From Styela clava (taxonomy: Eukaryota), in assembly GCF_964204865.1 (NCBI RefSeq), contig NC_135260.1, positions 10,354,001 to 10,418,000 of the forward strand: a stretch of 64,000 bases of DNA, in the 5' to 3' direction. The notes beneath the pieces were generated by a model. The model searched no databases and was not told the DNA's origin. It was given only the letters and a program-made list of their open reading frames with translations. The translations under genes were made by a program, and so were the position numbers. Below, one piece after another: positions 13,679 to 62,370 of the stretch. Position 1 is the first letter of the stretch; each line of letters opens with the position of its first letter.

Positions 13679-16600
13679 ATGGCAAAAAGAGTTCACCCTG
13701 GTAAGTCTAAATTGCATATTATTCACATATTGTGACTAAGTTTTGAAGTTTTACAAAAATCTCATTTGAATATAATATGCTGAAAAAAGATAGCAATGGA
13801 ATCATGAAATTCATTTTCATAAAATATTCTGAAATGTCACGTCCGAAATAAGAGTTATTTTATTTTAAAAGGGTATTTAGTATTTACAAAATATTAATTT
13901 TAAAAATGGAAGAAAAAATAGCTATCGAACACACATCAAATGTTTATTTTTGTTCATTTAAAAAATCTTCTATCATATCAAACTTTATACAAAGAAAAAC
14001 AGTCACAAATAAATTCACCCACAATTTATCGTGATACAACATTATCAAAAAATTATGTCAGGGATTACCTAAGCTATGAGCTCTAGGTTAAACTATACAC
14101 TTTATATTTATATGTTGACTTATAAAGTAAATAACAGTCTTCCTTATATTGAGCTTACTTAAAATCTACTCTGAATTAATTCATTTTTTGTAGAATTGTA
14201 TTAACATAAAAACTATCGTACTTTTTCTTCAGAAGGACAAGAAAATGATGCGTTTGAGCATGAAGAAGCCTTTGGAGAAATGGATGTAAAAAAAGAAAAA
14301 AAGGTAAGCAGTTTATTTGGTGAAAAATGGTTGAAGCGCTAAACTCGACTATGATGGCATCGTAGGTTAAAATCTTGAGTACTGGTCCCATGTCCACGAC
14401 CTAAGCTGAGTGTAATAAATTGGATAATACCTACTGAACTGAGAATATTCTGCTCCTTCCAAATTAAAGTAGCTCAATACTGGTAGTGGCTGCTTGTGCA
14501 GAGCCTTGTTCAGAGCAAAAGTCATATAAATACATTGCATAGTACAAAATTGCTCATTCTTATCCATTTTATCATTTATATTTTTCATTTAATTCAGTTA
14601 ATAAATAACATCCGTTTAATATTTTCTTTATTTGTAGTTCTAATGAGTTTTATCACACCTCATTGTACTTGATCAATCAAGTTTACGATATGTGATATGT
14701 GATTGTAAATTAAAGAGTCATTTTTTTGCAGAATGGAAACAAAGTGAAACATACCACATTCCAAGATGTTGTCAATCTTGAACTACAAGCAAAAGCCGCA
14801 GGAAAAGAATGGCATCATTTCATTACGAGAAAAAGAAAATTTTTTCGAAAAGCTGATTCGGGTATGTGTGTGGATGCCTGTGCTAAATTAATCATTAAAA
14901 ATTGAAATTAATAAATACTGTGTCGTTTTTGAATCTCAAGAAAATTCCCTTCACAAGTACAATGATTGGACTTGAATAGAGTAGTCAGTGTTTCCCAAAC
15001 TGTGGGTCGCGACCAAGCGCGCAGCCAGGATTTTCAAAAGGGGGGGTTTCGTAATCATAAATTCCCATTGCGATCTGTAACAGTCTTCGCATTACGCGCT
15101 CGGTAAAGGGACGCCTTTTCAGCGTATAATGATTATTCTTGTCGCGTGAAATATTCAATCTCTGACAACTACAAAATTCTAAAATGTCTTTATATATTAG
15201 TTTAATTGTGTCCAACGTAACTCGCGGTTGCTTTTTCTTACGTCAAAATTAAAACATTAGTTCTCTGAAATGACACGGTGATCGGTGGACATAAAAACAT
15301 GAGATAAACGGTGTATTTAATTTTAATACGTATTTTTGGAATCTTGCCAACTCGTTATCGCCGTTAGAAAAATCTCAATAACTGATATAAAATACCGAAA
15401 AGTACAATTTTATTTCGTACAATGAAAATGCATATGAAGTATATCGTTAAATCAAAAATACATATTCATCGCCGCGATTACGCCACTTGTTAAAAGAGCC
15501 GACGTTTACAACGAAAAATGATTTTTCTGTTGTGCAAAGTAATCAATTCGTGACCGATAAGGGCATATTTAAAATGTCTTGCTTCATTAATTTAATTGTC
15601 TTCGATTTAACCAGCGTTTGCGTCGACAAAACAAAACAATTTTTTACAATTCACAATTTTAAAATACCTCGGCCATTTGCCGACATAAAAATAAAAATTT
15701 GTGGTAACTGCCCGTCGCCTATCATATATTGTTTTGATCCGTATTTTTTCTATTTTGCAAATTCGACAAATTTGAGATGTGCTTGTAACATTGACTCCGT
15801 TCAATCGCAATGCTGACACTCCGATTATTTTTAAAGCTAAAACCTCCTGAAAAATCCGTAAATCTGCTGTAAATTCTCATGGAGTAAAATTTATTTCAGT
15901 TCAATAAAAATTGATGGATATACTTCGGATTAATTATCTTATATATCATCACAAACCGGGAAAAAAATCGCGTTTTCAACCTTGTTTAATGATAACACGA
16001 AAATTTTCTACGACAATTTTAAAGTAATGGATAAAAGGCAAATCCCACCCACAATTAACCGTGTTTCGATTTTAGTGACGGTATGTTCCTAAACGGCGAC
16101 CAAACATAATGTGCGCCGTAGGCACACGAAATTTTGCGATTTTGCGACTAGAAAAGCGTTTTTAGACTGTCGCCGGGACTCAACAAAACTCATTGATTAC
16201 GGTTTTATTTTTAGTATTTTATAATGCCGCTTTTCAATCAAATTTAGATCGCGGTTTTACTCCTTCTTTTGTCTTTAGAACCTCGCCACCGATGAACGTA
16301 TAATAACTCACGAATTCACAATTCCGTGCAAAGTACAAAAATAAAATAACTATCATGTTTATCGTGGCACAAATTTATGATTTAGAAAGAATAAAAACCG
16401 ACGTAAGGGCCCGTGACCCCCATAATGAAGATATTTTGGGGTCGCCAACTTTTATTAAACATGTGCAAACATGTCACTAGAACTTGAAAGTGTAATTTGT
16501 GCTGGTTGGGTATTGTCAAATGCAATTGAATGATAGTGTTACGAGAGTCGATAACATTTTCCTATTTATAGCTTTTTTGCTGATGTTACATCCGATAGTT

Positions 16601-19600
16601 GACCCTATTCTTTATCTTCTCGTGAGTACCTGCAGGCTGAACCAGTGGTCCCAATTCCTTGTCTGCGAACCGAATTTTTGCCAGACTGCAGGAAATTGTC
16701 TTTTTTTATTTATTTTGCTACCAATGTGATCGCTCAGTTATGGAATACAAAGCAGCGTTGCTTTATTTGGCAATTGACCCTAAATTGAGTGTTTGACATA
16801 TATGTTAATATTGAATGTCGAGTAAGCACGCTTTTCAGATTTCTATCCGTTGCGAAAGCGTTTCGTTAATTCTGGGTCAATGTTCAACGTCCACGTAAAT
16901 GTAACAACTACGCACCAACCTTTACCAAACTTAGTCGATACACAGGTACATTGAGATAATGGACCTTTCCCCGACCTTTGACCCCCGAAAACTTCTCCCC
17001 ATACTTTACCATTGGAAATTTTTTCGGTGCTATTTTAAGAGTGCTTTTGCGAGTTGGTGCCTGTGAAATGGGGTATTTGTTTCAAACCATCATTATGATT
17101 CATCGCATACAACAATCTGTTTTTTAAAAGTACTGTTAAAGAATTTTAGCCTAGTCTATCACAGCTATTTCTACACTAATTTTTATTACTGCAATCAAAT
17201 TAAAACTCCTAGGAAGACAGGGTGACCATTGAATTATCTGATTTACATTTAAGTTTCCAAAACACAACTGAAAACTAACGAATAGAGTTCAAAAATGCGA
17301 AAACGAGGTAATGTTTACGACCACGCTTGAAAATCTGTCTGAGTGAGAAAAGTGTCTGAGCGGATGCGAAAAGGGAGCATTGTTTCGTCACTTTTTGCAA
17401 TTTGCTGATAGGCCAATGTCACGAAGTAAACAAGGAAGTCGATGCTCGGGGAAAGGTCCATTGAGGGGAATATATTGATTTTCAAAATTGTAGAACTTTT
17501 CTGGTTTTGGGGACTCCAGTATCTGTAGTCTGAACTGATCCCACACCTTCCATGATTCGGGGGTTGGGCCATGGGTCATCATATGATTAAGCTGTCTAGA
17601 TGGCTTTCCTCGTTCTCAGAATAAATATGTAATTCCTATTCTATTCTATCCAATTTAACTCATGTTTACACCAGTATTCTCGAAGTCACAGGGTCAAGTC
17701 ATGAGTTATTTAGTCCTCAAGTCAAGTTCGAGTCTTGAAGTCAATCAATCGATCTAATCTCCAACTTGAACCCCACATATCGTAGTCGTCACTGTCAATC
17801 ACAGTGATTTTAAAGAATTTTAACATTCCTAGATGTGAGTTCCATGCGTACTTATTCAAGACTGACGGCATTCCAAGAAAGAGAACTTGGACTTGACATT
17901 GAATCAGATGAGGATGATGGACAACTTCCAGCGAGTGCACCAAATGGGGCAATACCCTCAACTTCAAAACAAGGTATTTTATTTTTTCATCGATTTTTGT
18001 ATGTTTTTTATCAGATAGGATAGGATAAGATTTACATATTTATCTCGGGGGAAAGGAAAGCCGATAAGATGGCTTAACCATATGGCGAACCTCGGCCTTT
18101 CGTCCGGTTACCAGTCTATGTCGGGTATGGGATCAGTTTTGGTTATTTGTTTTTCGGAAGCAGGGACTTGATGGTGGAGGAATCCGTAACCGAGCAGCGG
18201 TTACATGAACCACCCTACGACGGCCCACCCTATGAGTCCAGCAATACTCTCGCACATAACTGCCCCGCATGATTATTCGAACCTGCGAACTCACACAGGG
18301 TAATCAGAGATGCGGTAGCGAGCGTATTCCTAACGCTTAGCACGATGAGCCACACCGCCGCGTCTATCGTGCGCAGTGTCACAGATATCTAGTCTGGTTT
18401 CTTCCCTTCCGGAGTAAAGGAATATACTCATAGAAACAGACATAAAATCAACATGTAGTACTTACTTAAAAAAGGCGCTTAAGATTGAAATTTTAAACTG
18501 CTTTCTGCTGTCCTCTTTATAGACGCAATAATCATTGGGAATCACAGAAATATTGATTTGTATCAAAAAATTGATAACAACTGTTGCCTGCATAGATGGG
18601 TTTCTGAAGATGTTTTTCAAAATTCTTGCGGTACTTAACGCCTCTAATATATATATACAATTTTATTTTATACTTATTAATGGTACTAAAAATTTTGATA
18701 TTTCAAAAACTGCTTATTTAGAAAGACTTGATAATAGGAAATGCATAATGTTGTGACTTTTTCCGTTATGTTATGTTGCTGTTGTCTGTGATTATGTATC
18801 ATAACGTTCATTCAAGTTCTGTATGTTCCCATATTCAAATACTTTAATATCATGTATCAAGAAATTAGAATATAATTTTAGTTCCTATTTCCAATTCACT
18901 TTAATGAATATTACCAAATTTTGAAAAGTTTATTGTATAAATATGGTAATTTTAATGATTATAAGATAATTATTCTTGAAAAACATTTTCTTAATATTTG
19001 TCTGGTGCAAAATACTTGTTTTGGTTACTTCTTTTAGTATTCTTTACCTTGTGTGATATCTACATGTAGGCTCTGTAAACACTTCCAATAATAAATAGAA
19101 CGACATAGGGTATTCATAATCTTCAGAATGCGTTCCAAAGCAAACATAGCGATTCATTGATGTTGTGATAGAATGTTTGGATAAGATGTTTACAAAGTTT
19201 CAACACTGTTAAACTTTGTTCAATGTTAAACTAACATAGAAACTCTCAAGCGTTTTTGCCATGTGAACGACCAAACTAAAGCGCTTTCAATTTTGTAATT
19301 CAATGTCCTTTATTTATTGGAATACTCTCCTCATATGGTTCTGAAAGAAAAGTTTTTGCTTGAGATTTCTATTGTTATATTTATTCATACGGATTAATCT
19401 TTGTTACTGTAAAGCTTCATACAATACAAATACTGCTGCCTCATAGCTGAAATATATATAATTATAACAGTAATAACGGTATTCAGGTACCATTATAGTC
19501 AGTCGCCTTTTATATTCATCAGGATAAAAAACCAAAATTGGCAGAAATGAAATTTCTGTAAACTTTTTAACTTTTCCGAATTAGGTATAAGCATCTATAT

Positions 19601-22600
19601 TGTGTTTTGACTGTTAAATTCCTTATCTGTCATTTATTTTGTTCTAGACTATTATCTTAAACACTCTAAACCATTACTTAATTATATTTTTATTAAAGGG
19701 TATTGCAGGCCATCTTTTTTTTTTCTATTTTCTATCAGACTTATGTTATTACTGATTGGAAGTAAGATATAAAATCTGAAAAAACATGGAATTGCAACCA
19801 ATTTCAAAATTAAATTTTTCATCCAACTTTAATAAATCTTTTTTCTTTCTTTCTACTTTTCAGTTGACAGAAGCAAAATAAGGTCATTGAATAAGAAGGT
19901 GATCGGTCATTTTGTATCACTCAATCAACTTCCACATGAAAGTGCAGAGGTAGGTGTGTCATCTTCACATATATTCAATCCAGAAGCGGAACTGTTAGTG
20001 GTACCTGGAATACAAAGAGCTACATTTATTTGCTATCTATTCCTTTTCTGAAGGACTAACTCCTTTTTCTATGCTTGTGTATCTGTATGTATATAATGAA
20101 AGAATGCTGTAGCTGCTGTGAAGATAACTATTTTATGTGATTCAAGAGCCTTGCTGTACATTTTTACAAATATATTTCTCTAACTTCTTTGCCTGACCAA
20201 TGTCAGAATTCTTCAGAATGAACTATATCTGAGAAAGTCTGACTTCGGTCAGACGAAACGTTATAGAAATATGTTTGTGTTAATTGTGCAGCAAGACTCT
20301 TGAATCACTCAGAATAATTATTTGTTCACATGACATTTGAACCAAATTTTGCAATTTAAGCTAACACATATTCCAAACCATGATATTTAGAAAACTAGAA
20401 TTTTGTTTGACACAATAAATCAATAAACTTACAATATTTAAACCACACACAAATTATGATTTACATTATGTAGATTCCATGTTTATGAAATCTTTTCAGG
20501 TAAATCTGGAGCTTTTATCATCATTATTTGCACAAGGAGCTGAGGCTAATTGCTGTGATAGATATGGACAAACGTTATTACACGAGGTAAGATTTCATAT
20601 TTTGTATATAATTTTATCTGCATTTTTTATCCGTTTTTTAGTTTCAACTGTCTACTTGATAAAATTATTCTGAACTAACGTATTTTTATCAAAGTTTAAA
20701 TTATTAATTTATAAATAATCATTAATATTTCATAGTAACGGTTGTCAAAAAAGTGATAAAATCATTCTGAAATTTCCATTTTTACATTATTTTGGGATGA
20801 AGCGAAAAAGTAATACCACTCTCGCTGAATTAGTATATACAGGGTGTCTCAAACGTAAGTATACCTTTTTAATTTTGAATTGCTTCTCAGGTACTTATCA
20901 TAGAGCGTTCATTTCTTCAGAAAACATAGTATGGATAAGTAGTAAAATTTAGGTATTTTTTGCATTTTTTTTATCAACCACAGAATGACAAGGAGAATAA
21001 ACCAAAAATGAGGTGCAAAATTGCTGTTTGGCAGGAAGCTTATGAATCAGTAGGGCAAATTCGCTCCTCTTTAACACAGAATTTGGAATTATTTGGCTCT
21101 GAATGTTTTCCTCAGAGCGGGCTCTCCTTGGTCTTCCTGATCTATGTGCGTCAACTACAGATCCAGTTTTCATAAATTTACGATGAATTGCATAAATTGT
21201 TCGGGTAGGAGCCAAATCAATTCCAAATTCTCTGTTAAAGAGGCGCTGAGTTGTCGGGTAGGAGCCAAATCAATTCCAAATTCTCTGTTAAAGAGGCGCT
21301 GAGTTTACCTCACTGGCACCACATTTCTTGGTTTAATCTCCTTGTCCTTCTGTGGGTTGATGAAAAATGCAAACAATACTAAAATTTTACTACTTATCCA
21401 TACTATGTTTGCTGAAGAAATAAAAGCCCTCTAATAAGTATCTGAAAAGCAAATCAAAATTAAAAGTCTATACTTACTTTTGAGACACCCTGTATATCGT
21501 GTATAAACATCATAAAAATAGTTACGGTAAATGCAATTTTTTATGCGATAAACAAGGCAAACTGCCTTTGCTGGGTAAGAACATACTATATTTTTTGAAA
21601 TTACTGTAATATAGTTTGGTATTGCACACCCAATTGATGACACCCTCGGTAAGACACTGGCGGTTTTCATACTGATTGAGTGCAAGGGATCAAATATGCT
21701 TGATCAAATTTAGGTTTGCTGATGCAGATTTAACAAATTCATCTGTTGTTTGTGACATTCCTTGTGTGAACATTCATATTAGCTCATGAACCTATCTCTA
21801 CTCATGTTTTGGTGCCTCTTTGGTATGCAATCTCAGCGGTTCTGTGATCTCAGTGATTTTAGTTGGGGATAGGAACTGAATTCCATGAGTCTTTATGAGA
21901 TTAAACGCATACGAAAGTGGCTCCACTTGTTATGAGATTGAGATCACGTTAAGCAAGTGGCAACCTCCTATTTTCCTTTTTCTAAAGGAAGTTCTGTTAA
22001 CTTTTATGCATTCTCTATTGTATGATATCCAGGTAGCAAGACTTTGGCATGTTGATGTTGCAGAGTTTCTCATTGCTAAAGGAGCTGATATCAATCGTTC
22101 TGATCGGTTTGTATCATTTTAAGTTATGCGAGTTGTGATCGAGAATATATTTATCTGTACCATCCAGAGAAAATGCATATGACCTATAATTACATTAGAA
22201 TTAAAGTGATTACTCTCCGGACAACATAATTCCATGTATGATTAAGCCATGTTATTGGCTTTCCCTCTTCCCCAAGATTAATATAAAAACCCTATTCCAT
22301 TTATTTATCCGAGAATCTTTAACATCGAATCCTTGAAATTCGAAAACAAAAGTGTTGAGAGTTGATATTTGGATATTCTGCCCCTTTTTGTCAGACACAA
22401 TACAAATATCTTTAATTGTGTGTTTTAAAATGAGTTATGAGAATCAAATTTAATTCAAGACAATTTTTTATAACATTCTCTTTACCCCAACTTTCAACTA
22501 GGCAACTTTTACTTTAGTAAGATACTATTTTTAGAAGAAACAGAATTATTTTCATATTAAATTTTACTTTTTTCTCAATTTTTACTTATGTAGCTCCTCT

Positions 22601-37600: not shown

Positions 37601-40542
37601 CATTTATTTTATTTTATACTACAGATAATAAAAAAGGAATGATGGGAAGAACTGGAATTGCTAGGTTGTCATCTGATATAACCAATATTGTCAGTACAGT
37701 CAATAATATGCAGGTTAGAATATGGTGAAAAACTGATTTGGTTTCATTTAAAGGCTTTCTCTGTGATTGCCTTGTTGTACAATTGGCCCACGAGACGAAA
37801 AAGGTTGGGCAGGCCTGCCTTACCGTATTTCAATTTGAAGTTCATGTAACTTTTTATAAATAAACTAATTGTATTTCAAATATTTTCCAGTATTTTTATG
37901 TTTGAAAGCTGGACATTTATGAAGTTATTAAAATTCTTAACCATGTAATCAAATCCAAAATAGTCAGAACCCATTATTAATCAAATTCTAAATTGTAGTT
38001 TGGCCATGATAATAATCTTGAGAAGGGATCTGAATATGTAAAGGAATCAAGTAATGTCCTATAGTTTTCAACAATTCCTTTATTACAATATTGATAGACA
38101 AATTCAGGAATTGCTTAGAAACGTAAAAAAAAAAAAATTTTAATTTTTATGTATATACCATAAAATAATTTTCAAATATTATCCGCATCAAAATCAATCA
38201 CATAAAATATTTTTGTCACCATATTTTCTTCTACTTTTTCGATAACATGTTTTGTTTCTTTTAGGAAGGAAATGTTGAAACTTTAAATAGAATGCAGAAA
38301 GATTTAAAAGAAATCAAAAGTATTCTTCGCCATTTGATAAGTTCAGAATCTCAACTAAGAAAACCAAGAAAAAAAGATTCGGAAAGTCATCAAAAATCAG
38401 GCAGTCTTCCACCAGCTTCCATTATAGATCCACCAGTGTAAGTTTTTTTATTTAAATACTTGTTTTAATAAACAAGTTTAATTTTAATTTTTAAGTTTTG
38501 ATTTTTTTGTCAAGACTGCATATTTCTAAAAAAAAATTTTTAATTAAAAAAAAGAAGTAGTATTAGGGATAAGAATGAGGTTTCATTTTTTCTCTGGGTG
38601 GGAGAAAGACGATGAGACGGCCTTATCATATGGCGTTCCACGGACTCTCATCCAGTTATGTTGGGTATGGGATTGGGGTTAGTTAGCGAGTTACTTTTTT
38701 CAGATGCATGGACTTGATGGTGGGGGGAGCCGTAACTAACCAGCGGTTATGTGCACCACCCTACGATGGTGAGGAGTCCAGCAATCTTCTCACATAAAAT
38801 TATCCCCCATGGAATGCCCCAGGGTAATCAGAGATGCGATGGCAAGTGTATTCCTAATGCTCAACACGATGCGCCACCCGTTGCGCCATGTAGCCTACTG
38901 ATAATAGTTGGTTATCCATTACTTCAATCAGGCGTGGTTGAGATATATTAATCTATTAATGGGTTAATTTACGGCTCTGATACCAGGCTTTTAAATTTTA
39001 GAAATTTATTTTAAAGGTCTGAGGTGATTACAATTTTTCAATATAACTCCTTTGATATTGCTTTAATGTTTTGTTTTTTGTTTCTTCCCAGCTTCCCTCT
39101 TGAAATTCGAACTCTTCCTCCAATACAAGACCTTCGACAAAAAAGATCTCAAGAATTTGAGCCAATGTATGTAAAACACTGCATAAAATTATGGATCTTA
39201 CACTTTTTATTGTGTTATAATATCTTTTATAATCTGATGTGAATTGGACTTTCTAATGCCGCGATATATCTTTACTGATTTGTTCTGTAAAGACTATGAT
39301 AACGAATGCAAAAAAATTTTAAGATTTTTTTTAAATAAATTGCTGATCTCTAATCTATGAATTTCAACACCTGTGAGTGCTGAAAATTTTTGTCTCAAGG
39401 ATATAAGAGCTCTTGGTACATCAGTCTATGTTCTGTTATGACTACATTTACTTGGGGAACTTGGTCAACTTGAGCCAACTTAGATGTGGAAATGTGTTGG
39501 ATTTGCTGAAAATGCTGAATACTATGGAAATGGTGATTAATAAAGACATAAATTATTTATAATGATAATCTTTATCTACCCTGCAGAAGACATCCATCAT
39601 TGGATAGAGTGACAGCAGATGATGTAAGAAGATCTGTTGAAGATAATTTAATGAGAAGATTAATTCATTCATCACAAGATTCAAGAGCAAGCAGAAAGTA
39701 AGATGTTTTTATAATTTCTGTTGAATACTATGTATGTTTAGTAATTTCAAATGAGTGATATTCAACTTGGAAGCTTTTTTGTACACTCAAGGTTAAAAGA
39801 TAGTAAAGTATATTGTGTATGCTGTATATTTTTCAACTCAATCATCAGAATATACAGCTGAGCATCAGGAAAATTTTATCATGATCACAGTTGGCGTGTC
39901 TACATGACTTACCTACTTGACTCTGTTTCACAGAGATTCTCTTTCGCTTTATTGAGTTTGGGTCAAAACACTATGTGTGTCTATGTATGATGGCGATTCA
40001 TACTATATCAATTCTTTTTTCTAACTTTTCGCTATCCTCTCACTACTCTCTCTACTCTAACTAATTTGTTGAAAAATTGCAGTATTCATCATGATTAAGT
40101 TCTTTTAGCAAGAAACAAGGGGGAAGTTTTTTACTTATTTTAAGAAATTAGAAGTATTTCTGCATACTCTCACAAATATATTTTCGTCTGATTAATGTCA
40201 GACTTCCACAGACAAGCATAAGTCAACAACATGTTCAACAGCATGACATGTACGGTAATTGGTTCAGCATGAAATTTGAATAGTAAAATTTCTAATGATT
40301 GTAATCTTTATTTCCTTGTGAATTCCCTATGACCAGCAATACAACTTTAATTCGATTTCAGTGCAAGACAAGATGACTTAGATTTTGAGATGACTCTGTT
40401 GCCTGGGTCACCTGCTCGAAGCACACCGAGACCAGACCTGTCAACCAGTTCAAGAACGCCACCACCTAATCCAACTGTGGCATTTCAGGATCCAGAACAG
40501 TCTGATTTGAATATTGGAGACAGGGGATCATCAAATGTGTAA
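13679..40542 (+). CDS. Ankyrin-repeat TRP cation channel (TRPV-like / TRPVL-type candidate), about 1051 aa
   Basis: Phase-consistent exons: 13679-13700, 14233-14303, 14732-14861, 17833-17973, 19864-19949, 20500-20586, 22033-22106, 22610-22686, 23130-23291, 24666-24775, 25310-25400, 25975-26007 (optional), 27389-27417, 28420-28511, 29289-29400, 29623-29793, 30301-30417, 30915-31020, 31623-31761, 32179-32294, 32856-33063, 34008-34109, 34638-34797, 37063-37105, 37625-37713, 38265-38437, 39092-39166, 39587-39697, 40202-40249 (optional), 40362-40542. ANK motifs GQTLLHE, GRTPIHVAA, QTPLHFAA, RTPLHTAA; pre-S1 IIMHPVILKMLELKWNKFG; S4-S5 LGPFVVMLGKIFYDILRF; S6 INLFIALLSDTF; TRP helix MQQAIQILSIEE. The terminal low-complexity exons are less certain than the core. 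Confidence 0.93.
14986..16450. mobile_element. Composite DNA-transposon block (hAT left end plus nested sequence); right boundary uncertain
   Basis: CAGTGTTTCCCAAACTGTGGGTCGCGACC (hAT-type end) at 14986, followed immediately by a different terminus AAGCGCGCAGCCAGGATTTTCAAAAGGGGGGG. GGGGTCGCC subterminal motif near 16440. Confidence 0.45.
16961..17459. mobile_element. MITE with GGACCTTTCCCCGA TIRs and AT flanks (ISL2EU/PIF-Harbinger-like)
   Basis: Perfect TIR GGACCTTTCCCCGA / TCGGGGAAAGGTCC, AT on both sides, homologous copies at 9354 and 11313. The superfamily assignment is inferred from the termini. Confidence 0.8.
18014..18362 (-). mobile_element. tRNA-derived SINE, family A (full length)
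   Basis: Reverse complement of the 48876-49223 element, with (TAGGA)n tail at 18014 and head at 18362. Confidence 0.9.
20117..20330. repeat. About 100-bp-arm inverted repeat made of two Penelope-type hammerhead remnants
   Basis: Arms 20117-20217 and 20228-20330 are diverged reverse complements. The + arm has CTGAGAA-A-GTCTGAC-TTCG-GTCAGAC-GAAACGTT. The - arm has CTGAAGA-A-TTCTGAC-ATTG-GTCAGGC-AAAGAAGTT. Confidence 0.7.
20840..21492. mobile_element. Tc1/mariner non-autonomous fold-back element with transposase N-terminal remnant
   Basis: TA|CAGGGTGTCTCAAA ... TTTGAGACACCCTG|TA with long inverted arms. The minus strand encodes QRLFNREFGIDLAPTRTIYAIHRKFMKTGSVVDAHRSGRPRRARSEENI (HTH plus GRPR). 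Internal 53-bp tandem repeat at 21201-21305. Confidence 0.9.
23739..24048. mobile_element. hAT MITE
   Basis: TIR CAGCGTTTCCCAAACT / AGTTTGGGAAACGCTG; TSD CACTAGAA / CACTAAAA. Confidence 0.88.
24088..24387 (-). mobile_element. tRNA-derived SINE, family A
   Basis: TAGGATAGGATTTACATATTTAT tail through to CACGATGTGCCACAC head; reverse of the consensus. Confidence 0.85.
24953..25100 (+). mobile_element. SINE family A, 5' fragment
   Basis: Head with AGCGTTAGAAATACGCT stem-loop and B box GGTTCGAATCC. Confidence 0.75.
27857..28313. mobile_element. hAT MITE
   Basis: TGGGGTGGTCCAA / TTGGACTACCCTG termini, CGCGGGCC subterminal repeats, exact TSD GTTTAGAC (27849-27856, 28314-28321). Confidence 0.85.
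31272..31562 (+). mobile_element. tRNA-derived SINE, family A
   Basis: Matches 48876-49223 with a short internal deletion. Confidence 0.9.
32500..32620 (-). mobile_element. SINE family B fragment
   Basis: The reverse strand reads GGCCTAGCGGTTAAAAGC (A box) ... CAGGTTCAAAT (B box) ... ACCCATAGTGTAATAAATTGGGTAGGC, similar to about 56660-56785, 57093-57225 and 60555-60640. Confidence 0.55.
33262..33530 (+). mobile_element. tRNA-derived SINE, family A
   Basis: Homologous head, core and ATCCT tail; the 3' third is shortened. Confidence 0.85.
34194..34503 (+). mobile_element. tRNA-derived SINE, family A
   Basis: Homologous head to tail (…GGGATAAATATGAAAATCCTATCCTATCC). Confidence 0.85.
37261..37550. 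mobile_element. Degenerate hAT MITE
   Basis: CAGGGG start; GGCGGGCCAGA...CCGGATTTGG...GGGTCGTAGTTTGCCC right end typical of Charlie-type MITEs; TSD diverged. Confidence 0.55.
38565..38885 (-). mobile_element. tRNA-derived SINE, family A
   Basis: Reverse-complement match to the family consensus. Confidence 0.85.
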
Positions 40543-59000: not shown

Positions 59001-62000
59001 GATGAGAAGGACTGCTTCTGATTTCACTCTTCATAGTCAAGGGCATTCAATTGCTCTAACTGAGGTAATAAACGATTTCGGATAAAGGATTTCATTTGTT
59101 TTCATGACTTTGTCAACACTCATAAATCATAATACCACAGTTTATGTTCAAAAATGTGCACGTATGGGGAGAATGCGACTTATTTGAAAGAATTGTTTTG
59201 TTGATTTATCCACCAACCTTTTTTGAATCTGGAATATTTTATAGTATGCAACACCAAGTGTTCTTCCAGATATGCTAATATGTTTTGATGTGATACTCAG
59301 TATTATTAACTCAGGTGTTATCTGTAAATATTGGTTGTTCTTCGTATGTTTATTTAGTAAGTGCAGTTTATTAAGAAACATTGCCAAATTTTTCTGTGAA
59401 CTCTAATTAAAATTAAAATGGGGTAAAATTTAACAATACAGAAAACATTGGAAAAAATAATAAAACGACAATACTTTTGATAAGACCGATGTCCTTGTAT
59501 ATTGTTGCACAAAAGATCAAATCTTGACTCCATTTTGGTGATGGTGGGTCTCAGTACTGATTCCAAATCTTTCAAATTTGATCGATATTTTGTTTTAACA
59601 TAATATAGTATTGAAACAGATTTCATTACTACCCCCATTTGAGCCCCTTCGCAGGGGTTGCGAGCCCCACTTCGAATAGCCCTGATTTAGGTCACTTACA
59701 AAATAGAAGTCTTTGGTTGTTTCTGATCGCAGCATATGTACATGAATAAAATCGTATTGTTGCAATTTTGATTTGAATCGATACGTTTTGTATATAGATT
59801 GCTCCGGCTCTATAATTTTTGCTACATGCTCGCATTTGGAGTTTTTTCTTAATTTTTTTACTTCGTATATCTATTTATCTTTTTTATGCTTTGTGTTTAA
59901 TATGAACCTATGACTCGGCAAGGTGGTGCATTATGCTATGCGTTAGAATATGCTCCACCGCACCTCTGATTACTCTGCGTGGGTTTGCAGATTCCAATCC
60001 TGTGGGGGATAATTGGGGACGGGTAAGCGGACGAGAGTTCGTGGTCCGCCATATTATTGAGCCATCCTATCCCCTTTCCTCTCGCCTGGGATCAATATGT
60101 AAATCCTATCCAATCCTTACTAAGCATGGGAAATCAAGGGTGATGATAATACTAATATTATTATTATACCAATTTTTTTAAAACAGGCAGGAATCGTTGT
60201 TCAAGGTCTAGAATCGTTAACGGGAAGTGAACCTGATAAAGGAGAAGAAGAATATGATTCGATGGTTGGAATGTCTTCCATTATGATGGGAGTGAAACTC
60301 AGACCACTAACATTTTTCCGAGGTTACGGAGACATGATGTCCTTGATATGGCAAGGAAGCTCTGGTGAACCTGAAGGAGTCGAAGCAATGTTAATGTTGA
60401 TGGATTATCTCCAGGTATTCATCTTAGCCAAAGAAAATTGAACATTTCTGTTTTTAAAAAAAAATGGGTTATGGTCTTTGTTTAACATTTAGTTAATTTT
60501 TTGAGCGCGACCAACTGGGTTAACCACAATGGCATTACAGGTTGGATTGTCGGGGTAAAATTCCATGCCCATCACTCGACCCAGGGTGTTTTAAATTGGG
60601 TGGGTTGTGGCGAAACTGGCAGATTATGGCCCTTACCTATCATGGGCTGCTTGTACAGAGCCTTGGTTTGAGTAAAAGGATATATTTACTTCGTACAAAA
60701 AAATGTAGTCGAGTGAAAATCGAATTTGGTTTTACTGAAATTTTCTTGTTGTTCATTATAGCTTGTACATTTTAAATTTTCTATAACAGGAGAGTCCAAC
60801 AGGTGGTCCGCGGGCCACAACCAGCACGACAAGCCATTTAATGTGGCCCTTGTCAGCACTCATAGATCATCATACGACAGTTTATGTTCAAAAATGTGCA
60901 CGCATGGGGAGAATGCATAACTTTTTTTTCTTCTCGCTGTTTTATATTATTTGCCGTTTTTCTCCGCTGTCCTCGTTAATGTTAATCTTTGTGTTTTTGG
61001 AGAAACTTTTTAAAAAAAATTTAGTGTAGCCCAGATGGATGTCGGAAGTTGGTTATGTATGGCCCACCGATAAAAATATGCTACACACCCCTGATCTAGC
61101 GCAAATATAAGAACTCTATTTTGCTTTTATTCAGCATATACCAATGGCATCAGGATTGCGAGTGAAAGCTGAAGTATTAGGTGCAATATCTACTAAAATA
61201 TCAGTTGCTATTGAATTTTCATTATGGAGCAGAACAGTTGAGATTACTACAACAAATGGGTGAGTATTACAATTCTTGAAGATTCCCCCTGAAGATTTGT
61301 TAGAATGTACAAATGAAAAAGCACGAAGAAACCATCTAGAAATAGATGACAATATGAGAGAAACAAACAGAAAAATTTTACCCTCTGTGGATTGATGGAA
61401 ACACACTGTAACTTGCACAATTGTTGCCACCACATTTTCAGAACTAAGCAGTGGTTCTCAAACGGTGTGGCGGGTCCCGCAAGACAATAATACAATTTTC
61501 GGCAACGAGATACTTGAAAATTGATTCATGCTTATTCTAGAATTTCATAATTATAGATCCACACAATCAAACACCGTCCTGGCGTTAGGAATACGCTTGC
61601 CAACGCACCTCTGATTACCCTGAATGGTGTTCGCAGGTTCGAATTTCGTGAAGAATAATTATGTACGAGAGGATCGCTATACTCCTCGCCGCAGCAAGTT
61701 GGTTCACACCACCGCTGGTTGGTTACGGCTTCCTCCACCATCAAGTCCACGCATCTGAAACAAATAACCGACTAACTAATCACATACCCGACATTGAATG
61801 ATAACCTCGGACGAGAGGCCGTGGTTCGCCATATGATAAAACCGTCTTATCGGATTTCCTCTCCTCTTGAATAAATATGAAAATCGGCGATTTTCATATT
61901 TATCCCAGAGGAGAGGGAAGACGATAAAGCGGCTTAATTATGTGGCGGGCCGCCGCTTCTCGTTTGCTTACTAGTCCGCGTCGGGTATTGGATTATTAAA

Positions 62001-62370
62001 TCAGATATTTGTTTCAGATGGATGATGATGTAAAAATGGTTACTGAACCCCGCTGCGGCTGCGAGTTCTGCAATTCCCTCGCACATATTTATTTCCCACG
62101 GAATTCGAATCTGTGAAAATATCAGAACAAGCCTACTCAGCTATCAAAACAATTACTTTTAGTTTTTTTTATATAATGTTACATTTTATTTTATTTCAGT
62201 GGAGCATTCTCTATTCAATGTCGCTTATCCTTGGAATCACCAATAGTCCGAGCATCGGTTCGTCACCAAGGAGACGCTCAATCGTCGATCGATTTCTCCG
62301 TATTCACTGATTTTTCTTCGCTTCCTCCAAAATCCTGCATCAGAATTTCCTATCCTGATTTTATATTCAC
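44040..62370 (+). CDS. MTTP: Microsomal triglyceride transfer protein large subunit (3' partial; final exon beyond the window)
   Basis: Phase-consistent exons: 44040-44106, 46480 (or 46477)-46614, 47258-47340, 47843-47971, 48434-48541, 49461-49577, 50496-50641, 51151-51236, 52593-52678, 53389-53549, 54250-54418, 55248-55361, 56063-56278, 57329-57543, 58088-58186, 58944-59064, 60187-60414, 61135-61259, 62200-62370 (about 858 codons). Motifs YQYSYEAEV, WTNPDNKYDQVI, NIKRGILGFFQ, EDLSGKCNVTY, ATAQTDASQAALIDFLDF, FSSHPSE, LRPLTFFRGYGDMMS and EFSLWSR match MTP. The first coding exon is less certain than the rest. Confidence 0.95.
44821..44833 (-). promoter_or_regulatory. HNF4-type DR1 element in MTTP intron 1
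   Basis: TGGACTTTGAACT is AGTTCAAAGTCCA on the minus strand and contains the HNF4-specific CAAAGTCCA. Related sites at 44266 and 44887. Confidence 0.45.
48876..49223 (+). mobile_element. tRNA-derived SINE, family A (most intact copy, 348 bp)
   Basis: A box TGGCTCAACAGG at 48888-48899, B box GGTTCGAATCC at 48957-48967, structured core, (ATCCT)n tail. About 20 full or partial copies in the window. Confidence 0.93.
49965..50345. mobile_element. Two SINE family A fragments in opposite orientation
   Basis: Minus-oriented 3' part at about 49965-50075, then plus-oriented body and tail at about 50105-50345. Confidence 0.75.
51661..51956 (+). mobile_element. Non-autonomous Helentron/Helitron-like element (HINE/DINE-1-like)
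   Basis: 5' subTIR CTTATCGATC with local inverted copy, TGTCTGTTTGTTTGTCTG microsatellite, 3' subTIR GATCGATAAG, hairpin TTCGGTT-TCC-AACCGAA, then CTAGT. Confidence 0.75.
52150..52455 (+). mobile_element. SINE family A, degenerate 3' part
   Basis: Core AACCGCTGGTCGGTTAC and tail TAAATATGTAAATCCTATC. Confidence 0.7.
53920..54135 (+). mobile_element. SINE family A, 5'-truncated
   Basis: Core and tail match the consensus. Confidence 0.8.
54785..55100 (-). mobile_element. tRNA-derived SINE, family A (an older fragment lies at about 54570-54770)
   Basis: Near full-length reverse-complement match. Confidence 0.88.
56325..56785 (+). mobile_element. SINE family B interrupted in its A box by a hAT MITE (about 56341-56660)
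   Basis: GGTGGCCTAGTG | AATAGGGTTTTCAAA ... TTTGAGAACCCCTG | GTCCAGGGGTCAAAGCG. The SINE continues to CATCCAGGGTGTATGGAATTGGG. Confidence 0.55.
59138..59683 (-). mobile_element. hAT (Charlie/Buster-like) element remnant with transposase C-terminus
   Basis: The minus frame reads YVKTKYRSNLKDLESVLRPTITKMESRFDLLCNNIQGHRSY, resembling the hAT C-terminal dimerisation region. The end reads ...TTCGAATAGCCCTG. Confidence 0.65.
59914..60115 (+). mobile_element. SINE family A, internally deleted
   Basis: Head and tail present, core missing. Confidence 0.75.
60788..61093. mobile_element. hAT MITE
   Basis: CAGGAGAGTCCAAC...GGTCCGCGGGCC start and ...ACACCCCTG end. Shares CAGTTTATGTTCAAAAATGTGCACG with 59138. 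Confidence 0.6.
61575..62112. mobile_element. Tail-to-tail inverted pair of family A SINEs
   Basis: Plus copy at about 61575-61886 and minus copy at 61888-62112, joined by a perfect 16-bp inverted repeat with a 1-nt spacer. Confidence 0.85.

What the first reader, a model, noticed from the sequence alone, without database searches (positions are those of the whole stretch)
20117..20330. Inverted pair of Penelope-type hammerhead ribozyme remnants in a TRP intron
Seen: an inverted repeat with arms of about 100 bp. The sense arm has CTGAGAA (20229-20235), a perfect 7-bp stem II GTCTGAC/GTCAGAC capped by a C(UUCG)G tetraloop, then GAAACGTT with palindromic AACGTT. The antisense arm has the canonical CTGAAGA box but a damaged GAAA. 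The two-arm consensus CTGAAGAAGTCTGACnTnGGTCAGACGAAACGTT is a canonical minimal type I hammerhead. Known: such minimal hammerheads with palindromic stem III mark Penelope-like element pLTRs, which often occur inverted and cleave as dimers. Inference: each copy here is probably inactive (G8 is A in the sense arm and stem I is weak), but they point to a PLE or retrozyme-like family in this genome and form a long pre-mRNA hairpin.
Basis: partly seen in the sequence, partly recalled or inferred. Interest (0 to 1): 0.7.

Follow-up and report, generated by a model that had tools for sequence, protein, structure and literature searches.

The report
Dead Penelope ribozyme pair in intron
Two decayed ends of a common jumping gene sit head to head in a spliced intron of a sea-squirt ion-channel gene, each with a likely dead self-cutting RNA motif; the spot itself is ordinary, but its many relatives suggest these elements insert as two DNA copies made at once from uncut, capped RNA.

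Summary
Confirmed, and larger than reported: the hairpin is part of a ~285-bp head-to-head insertion (about 20032-20315) of a Penelope-like element (PLE) in an intron of an ankyrin TRP gene (98% to a Styela clava record). The family has over 1,000 candidate copies and a parent with an intact 940-aa RT + GIY-YIG frame between two hammerhead-bearing pLTRs. Copies converge on CUGANGA/GAAA (147 of 160 arms), and sister families covary. Both motifs here are likely dead (G8A; G10.1 and G12 lost), are predicted locked in the hairpin, and the UUCG loop is private drift. This architecture is published, and the scan noted another such copy in this genome.

Less ordinary: 38 of 39 two-armed copies pair one tailed with one untailed arm, mostly inside 12-13 bp target duplications; 5' ends pile up just upstream of the ribozyme, not at its cut site; and sister PLE families carry a tunicate-type spliced leader joined at a splice acceptor 16 nt before the core (9 independent loci of 39 fetched, two leader variants). 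Likely mechanism: twin target-primed reverse transcription of uncleaved capped RNA. Four searches found no paper on leader-capped PLEs; the scan earlier noted leader-capped LINEs here.

The parts
20032..20315 (.). Whole two-armed (head-to-head) PLE mini-insertion; ends approximate to a few bases
   Evidence: BLAST of the window against pLTR + 5' UTR of full-length copies
20032..20217 (-). Long arm: hammerhead remnant, pLTR end and tail, ending at the distal family end (E2, about +195 to +205 from core C3); 72-76% identical to young copies
20032..20130 (-). Tail (5' UTR of the parent element, between family ends E1 and E2)
20182..20219 (-). Antisense minimal hammerhead remnant: CUGAAGA intact, G10.1 changed to U, G12 changed to A, 1-nt insertion after the 3' box; predicted dead
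20213..20228 (.). Inversion junction; arms begin at about -3 and -13 relative to their core C3
20224..20315 (+). Short arm: hammerhead remnant and pLTR end, stopping at the proximal family end (E1, about +80 to +90); 82-88% identical to young copies
20226..20265 (+). Sense minimal type I hammerhead remnant: stem I 3 bp, core with G8 changed to A while C3 stays C, extra base 9/10.1, 7-bp stem II, GAAA, palindromic ACGU, would-be cut after 20262; predicted dead
20024..20034 (+). Candidate left copy of a decayed target site duplication (9 of 11 identical to 20316-20326, read by eye; weak on its own)
   Evidence: family duplications, whose automatic test did not recover this one
20316..20326 (+). 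Candidate right copy of the decayed target site duplication
19950..20499 (+). Host intron (GT..AG, 550 nt) of an ankyrin-repeat TRP channel gene, spliced out in RNA-guess contigs

Best explanation
This is an old, decayed two-armed insertion of a Penelope-like retrotransposon in a TRP-channel intron, whose two minimal hammerheads are likely dead and which likely arose by twin target-primed reverse transcription. Shown: family membership, the RT + GIY-YIG parent, two fixed 3' ends (E1 and E2, about 115 nt apart), one arm ending at each, 12-13 bp target duplications in relatives, 5' ends piled just upstream of the ribozyme, and splicing of the intron. Inferred: the endonuclease nicks both strands 12-13 bp apart; one nick primes at E1 and the other at E2 near the 5' end of the element's RNA; both cDNAs run through the uncut hammerhead to or near the capped 5' end (a start about 19 nt upstream of the core in this family) and are joined head to head. 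The hairpin in the pre-mRNA is then a passive by-product, spliced out with the intron.
For: 1,245 and 1,796 first-look candidates (lower bounds, 40 scored each); 42 exact 54-nt copies, 0 in the reversed control. L081: pLTRs 99.6% identical over 238 bp around a 940-aa frame with RVT_1 (E 8e-10) and GIY-YIG (E 1.4e-4, 0.1 bit under the cut-off; above it in 2 of 3 subfamilies scanned). Of 69 independent loci (from 90 given to the script) 39 are two-armed: 31 fall in strict E2+E1 bins, 38 when arms whose BLAST match stops at +162 to +177 or +69 are included and one mis-picked partner is read by eye; 1 is E1+E1, none E2+E2; exact duplications of 9 bp or more in 30 of 39, mode 12-13, against 22 of 1,482 shuffled pairs. 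The same pairing in 14 of 14 two-armed family D loci and 6 of 6 long inverted copies with both hammerhead arms resolved. In the tail-selected set 12 of 25 independent arms start at -7 to -19, 8 further upstream, 5 downstream. Non-parental G next to the start: 10 of 32 stopping arms against 0 of 29 continuing (family A); 5 of 6 arms stopping at -19 (family C, 35 arms examined). Both arms carry the leader in L146, L150 and L177, as two separate cDNAs would. Four stem pairs change on both sides across 6 subfamily representatives plus this arm, including the palindrome ACGU to AGCU. Stem II of the sense arm has pair probabilities under 0.001 in the folded intron. Published in vitro work: both strands cut and extended, two internal start sites bounding the tail, G8C abolishes cleavage, unprocessed RNA is the main template (PMC11167929, parts 1-2 read).
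Against: Nothing was assayed; G8A and G12A inactivity rests on established hammerhead chemistry (G8C tested in PMC11167929; G8A and G12A recalled). The samples are the best BLAST or pattern hits, so young and biased; set S2 and the family C set could not start downstream of -16 or -18. Two of 25 tail-selected arms start at +33 and +36, beside the cut site (+34), so some templates may be cleaved. In vitro the two strands showed no difference in start site (PMC11167929), which does not predict strict pairing. This copy's arms start at -3 and -13, so its own template 5' end cannot be read, and its target duplication is only 9 of 11. The covariation count rests on 7 related sequences and a structure drawn from them.
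Confidence: 0.85

Rival explanations
1. The inverted arm arose by fold-back or self-priming of a single cDNA or antisense template (the reading offered in PMC3846280), not by two primed cDNAs.
For: Junction palindromes and head-to-head order are what that paper explains this way (passages); several junctions here hold short mirrored pieces.
Against: A single fold-back gives no reason for the second arm to stop at the fixed site E1 against a 12-13 bp duplication, and a spliced leader is added to sense RNA only, yet sits on both arms in three loci.
Confidence: 0.15
2. The element is a self-mobile non-autonomous unit (retrozyme, SINE or MITE-like) copied as a hairpin.
For: Many short copies of similar size; a 360-bp tandem array of hammerhead-bearing units exists in family C (L270-L272).
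Against: Every junction differs and either arm can be the tailed one; arms grade into kb-long pieces of the parent frame; this locus is not tandem.
Confidence: 0.05
3. The hairpin or the sense-arm ribozyme has been co-opted to regulate the TRP transcript (splicing, editing, or cleavage).
For: Strong hairpin; sense arm keeps stem II, GAAA and a compensated stem I pair found in only 1 of 160 arms; no joint skipping the element was listed in 2 DNA-like runs (contigs show presence, not absence).
Against: G8A with C3 unchanged; stem II is predicted sequestered; arms have drifted apart with no sign of kept pairing beyond common origin; the intron is spliced normally.
Confidence: 0.05

Closest known systems
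Minimal hammerheads (min-HHR) in pLTRs of metazoan PLEs (Cervera and de la Pena 2014, PMC4209133; parts 1-2 of 4 read)
   Same: 7-bp helix II, extra base between 9 and 10.1, G10.1-C11.1, palindromic 15.2-16.2, short helix I; opposite-strand pairs 100-700 bp apart reported there in Schistosoma
   Different: Here the pair is about 13 nt apart at the cores' 5' sides, both cores are mutated, and the host is an ascidian; helix I core is 3 bp
Inverted pLTR + tail + TSD architecture of EN+ PLEs (Arkhipova et al. 2013, PMC3846280, passages; Craig et al. 2021, PMC8557442, passages)
   Same: Head-to-head inverted 5'-truncated copy, tail on one arm only, target duplication
   Different: Tail about 115 nt (30-40 there), duplication 12-13 bp (8-10 there); here the one-tail rule is counted as near invariant and the whole insertion is only ~285 bp
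Poseidon of Anolis (PAc) in vitro (Frangieh et al. 2024, PMC11167929; parts 1-2 of 4 read)
   Same: Two internal start sites bounding the tail, both strands extended, uncleaved RNA as template, AT-rich targets
   Different: This family has the CX2-5CxxC linker that Poseidon lacks; genomic pairs use one site per strand, which the in vitro assay did not show
Non-LTR retrozymes (Li et al. bioRxiv 10.64898/2026.07.22.740005; part 1 of 5 read)
   Same: Type I hammerhead derived from PLE pLTRs, no protein
   Different: Retrozymes are head-to-tail tandems with intact motifs; this is one inverted pair of dead motifs with a target duplication
Relict spliced-leader retrogenes of dinoflagellates (PMC12014239; search listing and abstract start only)
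   Same: DNA copies tagged at the 5' end by a spliced leader (sister families D and E, not this copy)
   Different: There host genes; here the retroelement's own RNA, with the leader 16 nt ahead of a hammerhead core

Membership tests
EN+ Penelope-like element (family of this copy) | Single frame with RT followed by C-terminal GIY-YIG endonuclease in a parent copy | tested here: met
   L081 940 aa, L086 977 aa, L088 960 aa; RVT_1 in 2 of 3, GIY-YIG in 3 of 3; 653 homologues at E<=1e-30
EN+ Penelope-like element (family of this copy) | Pseudo-LTRs in direct and inverted order carrying a hammerhead | tested here: met
   L081 direct pLTRs 99.6%; tandem and inverted copies L086-L090
EN+ Penelope-like element (family of this copy) | Tail at one end and target site duplication | tested here: met
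   38 of 39 and 30 of 39 two-armed loci; this copy has the tail, its duplication is decayed (9 of 11)
Neptune clade | CX2-5CxxC linker before GIY-YIG and CCHH motif (shared with Nematis, per PMC8557442) | tested here: met
   CX4CxxC, two cysteines between GIY and YIG and two later histidines read in the translations
Neptune clade | Phylogenetic placement of the RT against named Neptune and Nematis references | not tested
   No named clade references came back; Neptune versus Nematis stays open
Minimal type I hammerhead (family consensus form) | CUGANGA, extra base, G-C closed helix II, GAAA, palindromic helix III, NUH, helix I | tested here: met
   147 of 160 arms with canonical core; covariation across subfamilies
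Active hammerhead (the two copies at this locus) | Intact C3-G8 pair and G12 in the same motif | tested here: not met
   Sense arm C3 with A8; antisense arm lacks G12 and G10.1
Active hammerhead (the two copies at this locus) | Self-cleavage in vitro or in vivo | not testable with these tools
   Needs a bench assay
Non-LTR retrozyme | Head-to-tail tandem units each with a complete hammerhead | tested here: not met
   Single inverted pair; no tandem unit around it
Spliced-leader trans-spliced PLE RNA (sister families D, E) | Leader joined exactly after a pyrimidine tract + AG of the parent, absent from the parent, and encoded elsewhere in tandem genes ahead of a GT donor | tested here: met
   two variants, both in arrays followed by GT; 15 of 16 letters match the Ciona leader printed in PMC7986045 (by eye)
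Spliced-leader trans-spliced PLE RNA (sister families D, E) | Leader seen on host mRNAs and on element RNA | tested here: inconclusive
   Only contigs were available; one search listed no leader at the TRP 5' region
Spliced-leader trans-spliced PLE RNA (this copy's families A-C) | Leader at the 5' end of arms | tested here: not met
   None in 49 stopping arms (read by eye) or 34 (one loose flag, L251, is not a leader); 0 of 43 dispersed leader loci continue into A-C

The most novel reading that the evidence does not exclude
These ascidian PLEs insert by obligately asymmetric twin priming, one target strand at each of the two start sites, on capped and uncleaved RNA, and sister families let the host's spliced-leader machinery make their 5' end 16 nt in front of the hammerhead. 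The thousands of tiny hairpins are abortive products primed near the mRNA's 5' end, and the conserved hammerhead does not make the template's 5' end.
Probability: 0.6. Interest if true: 0.65.

Novelty: new member of a known kind. Interest (0 to 1): 0.42.

Why it matters
The locus itself matters little: a dead transposon scrap. Its family bears on an open question that PMC8557442 names, how PLEs make their tandem/inverted structures and tails. Counting copies gives a near-invariant rule (one tailed arm, one untailed arm, 12-13 bp apart on the target) and a natural tag for the RNA's 5' end (a spliced leader or an extra G), which together make twin priming by an asymmetric complex and the role of the hammerhead directly testable, with young intact elements at hand.

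Tried and rejected
Rfam: no hammerhead or leader model hit at the locus, on L081, L127 or L189; the mir-199 hit (E 0.019, 24 bits against 60) is the hairpin and was rejected. A loose CUGANGA..GAAA scan of the window gave 13 matches against 4.95 expected, with several overlapping, and was not used. UUCG tetraloop as a selected feature: rejected, 1 of 160. A TIR-type MITE: rejected, junctions vary and arms are asymmetric. Spliced leader on families A-C: not found. No RNA holder was listed for the locus; the RNA label of runs laid is a guess. Laying four such runs on 16400-19200 to see the leader on the TRP mRNA showed none among listed loose ends: no verdict. One row of alignment A2 (L011) had wrong coordinates and was dropped in A3. 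Summed contig depth over the motif was not used as a copy number. An unbiased genome-wide tally of 5' ends was not obtained. Literature: four searches joining Styela, Penelope, tunicate or non-LTR with spliced leader or trans-splicing, and one for twin priming with Penelope-like, listed no paper on leader-capped PLEs or on twin priming in PLEs by title or abstract start; subscription papers and supplements (such as the alignments of PMC4209133) were not seen.

Full report
Observation. The region 20110-20335 folds into one long hairpin (-94.6 kcal/mol, z -13.7) and its arms share 79 of 114 aligned columns. It lies in a 550-nt GT..AG intron, 19950-20499, skipped in contigs of two runs of two studies whose RNA label is a guess. 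Flanking exons encode ankyrin repeats, later ones weak Ion_trans matches, and one exon is 98% identical to a Styela clava 'pyrexia-like' TRP record, so the host is very likely that ascidian.

Family. A genome search with the hairpin gave 1,245 first-look candidates, 40 scored; a search with the tail 1,796. Aligned copies show a minimal type I hammerhead: CTGAAGA, one extra A, a 7-bp stem II, GAAA, palindromic ACGT and a 3-bp stem I. Walking upstream from exact copies led to an RT + GIY-YIG frame, and a protein search to intact frames of 940, 960 and 977 aa. L081 is a complete element: two 238-bp pLTRs 99.6% identical, each with the hammerhead, around a 940-aa frame. The linker has CX4CxxC and the nuclease the CCHH pattern, which PMC8557442 (passages) gives for Neptune and Nematis; the clade was not tested by a tree. 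Among 196 arms anchored downstream of the cut site, 160 run in register through the core and 147 of these have a canonical core. Across subfamilies A, B, C, D, E, E2 and this arm, 92% of cells pair and four pairs change on both sides, among them the helix III palindrome (few, related sequences). Rfam finds none of these motifs.

This copy. It spans about 20032-20315: a long minus-strand arm with tail and a short plus-strand arm, 72-88% identical to young copies. The sense core has A at position 8 with C3 unchanged; the antisense core has lost G10.1 and G12. C3 and G8 are required in a PLE hammerhead (G8C and C3G tested in PMC11167929); that G8A and G12A also disable is recalled knowledge. In the folded intron stem II of the sense arm has pair probability under 0.001. 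UUCG occurs in 1 of 160 arms, this one. A decayed duplication (9 of 11) flanks the element, read by eye; the automatic test missed it because the match to family A stops at +162.

How such copies arise. Counting from core C3, arms end at two fixed places, E1 (about +80 to +90, the pLTR end) and E2 (about +195 to +205, end of the tail). Of 69 independent loci, 39 are two-armed; 31 are E2+E1 in strict bins, 38 with relaxed bins and one partner read by eye, one is E1+E1 and none E2+E2; 30 of 39 have exact duplications of 9 bp or more (mode 12-13) against 22 of 1,482 control pairs. Single arms use both ends (10 E1, 9 E2 in the pattern set). The rule repeats in 14 of 14 two-armed family D loci and in six long inverted copies; among B and C loci two partners stop short of E1 (+54, +14) and none seen reaches E2. 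In the set chosen by tail only, 12 of 25 independent arms start at -7 to -19, 8 upstream, 5 downstream; a cleaved template would start at +34 and two arms (+33, +36) fit that. A G not in the parent precedes the start in 10 of 32 stopping A arms against 0 of 29 continuing ones and in 5 of 6 C arms that stop at -19, as a copied cap would give; untemplated additions in the stuttered junctions are an alternative. I infer twin target-primed reverse transcription on uncleaved capped RNA, primed near its 5' end. This fits the two start sites, two-strand extension and unprocessed template shown in vitro (PMC11167929), though that assay saw no strand difference. The architecture itself, inverted pLTR, tail on one arm, duplication, is described in PMC3846280 and PMC8557442, and opposite-strand min-HHR pairs in PMC4209133.

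Spliced leader in sister families. In family D (56% protein identity to A) many hits began at -18. Of 39 D loci fetched, some picked for that start, 11 (9 independent) carry an 18-nt leader within 3 mismatches, joined right after the AG of the parent's pyrimidine tract, 16 nt before the core. The leader has 1,022 exact matches, 0 in the reversed control; the first 100 listed include tandem arrays on C4 and C6, where it is followed by a GT donor, and a second variant in the same array is the one on L139-L142. It matches 15 of 16 letters of the Ciona leader printed in PMC7986045. Both arms carry it in L146, L150 and L177. Of 43 dispersed leader loci, 5 continue into D- or E-type hammerheads and none into A-C; of 8 read further, 6 hold a LINE-type RT frame. 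RNA proof is missing. None of this is shown for the window's own copy.

Verdict. Interest comes from the family: the one-tail rule with a 12-13 bp stagger, uncleaved capped templates, and leader-capped sister PLEs, for which my searches listed no paper. Papers seen: PMC4209133 and PMC11167929 parts 1-2 of 4; 10.64898/2026.07.22.740005 part 1 of 5; PMC8557442, PMC3846280, PMC2377424, PMC7986045 passages; PMC12014239 listing only; no supplements.

Noticed in passing
L189-L194 (G000:C4 about 23.30-23.48 Mb) and L214 (G000:C6 about 19.29-19.30 Mb): Tandem arrays of likely spliced-leader RNA genes: 18-nt leader followed by a GT donor; two leader variants side by side in the C4 array; about 490-bp period on C6. 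No Rfam hit.
   Followed up: partly
L139-L154, L175, L177, L178, L187: PLE families D and E with the spliced leader joined at an AG acceptor 16 nt before the hammerhead core; family D core begins with U instead of C3 and has AGCU in helix III.
   Followed up: yes
L275-L282 and L165-L213: Many dispersed leader matches head full-length LINEs (RT in 6 of 8 read, APE in 4) of several families.
   Followed up: partly
L270-L272 (G000:C3:14331840-14332640): Head-to-tail array with 360-bp period of family C pLTR + 5' region, one hammerhead per unit: a retrozyme-like locus.
   Followed up: no
L101, L105, L112, L034, L150 junctions: Inversion junctions hold short stuttered copies of the template's first bases, as if the telomerase-related RT re-primes repeatedly at the RNA 5' end.
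   Followed up: partly
L233/L234/L251 (G000:C9 about 12.249-12.251 Mb): A two-armed family C insertion nested inside a two-armed family B insertion.
   Followed up: no
window 40141-40231, minus strand: A second old copy of the same PLE family (72% identity), hammerhead region included.
   Followed up: no
window 20835-21497: Element with 135-nt inverted ends (88%), an internal 53-bp tandem duplication and a DUF4817 helix-turn-helix remnant, in the next TRP intron; looks like a Tc1/mariner-derived relic.
   Followed up: no
window 61752-62020: Another near-perfect palindrome (arms 76 nt, 1 nt apart, extending outwards) from a different repeat family; no match to the PLE references.
   Followed up: no
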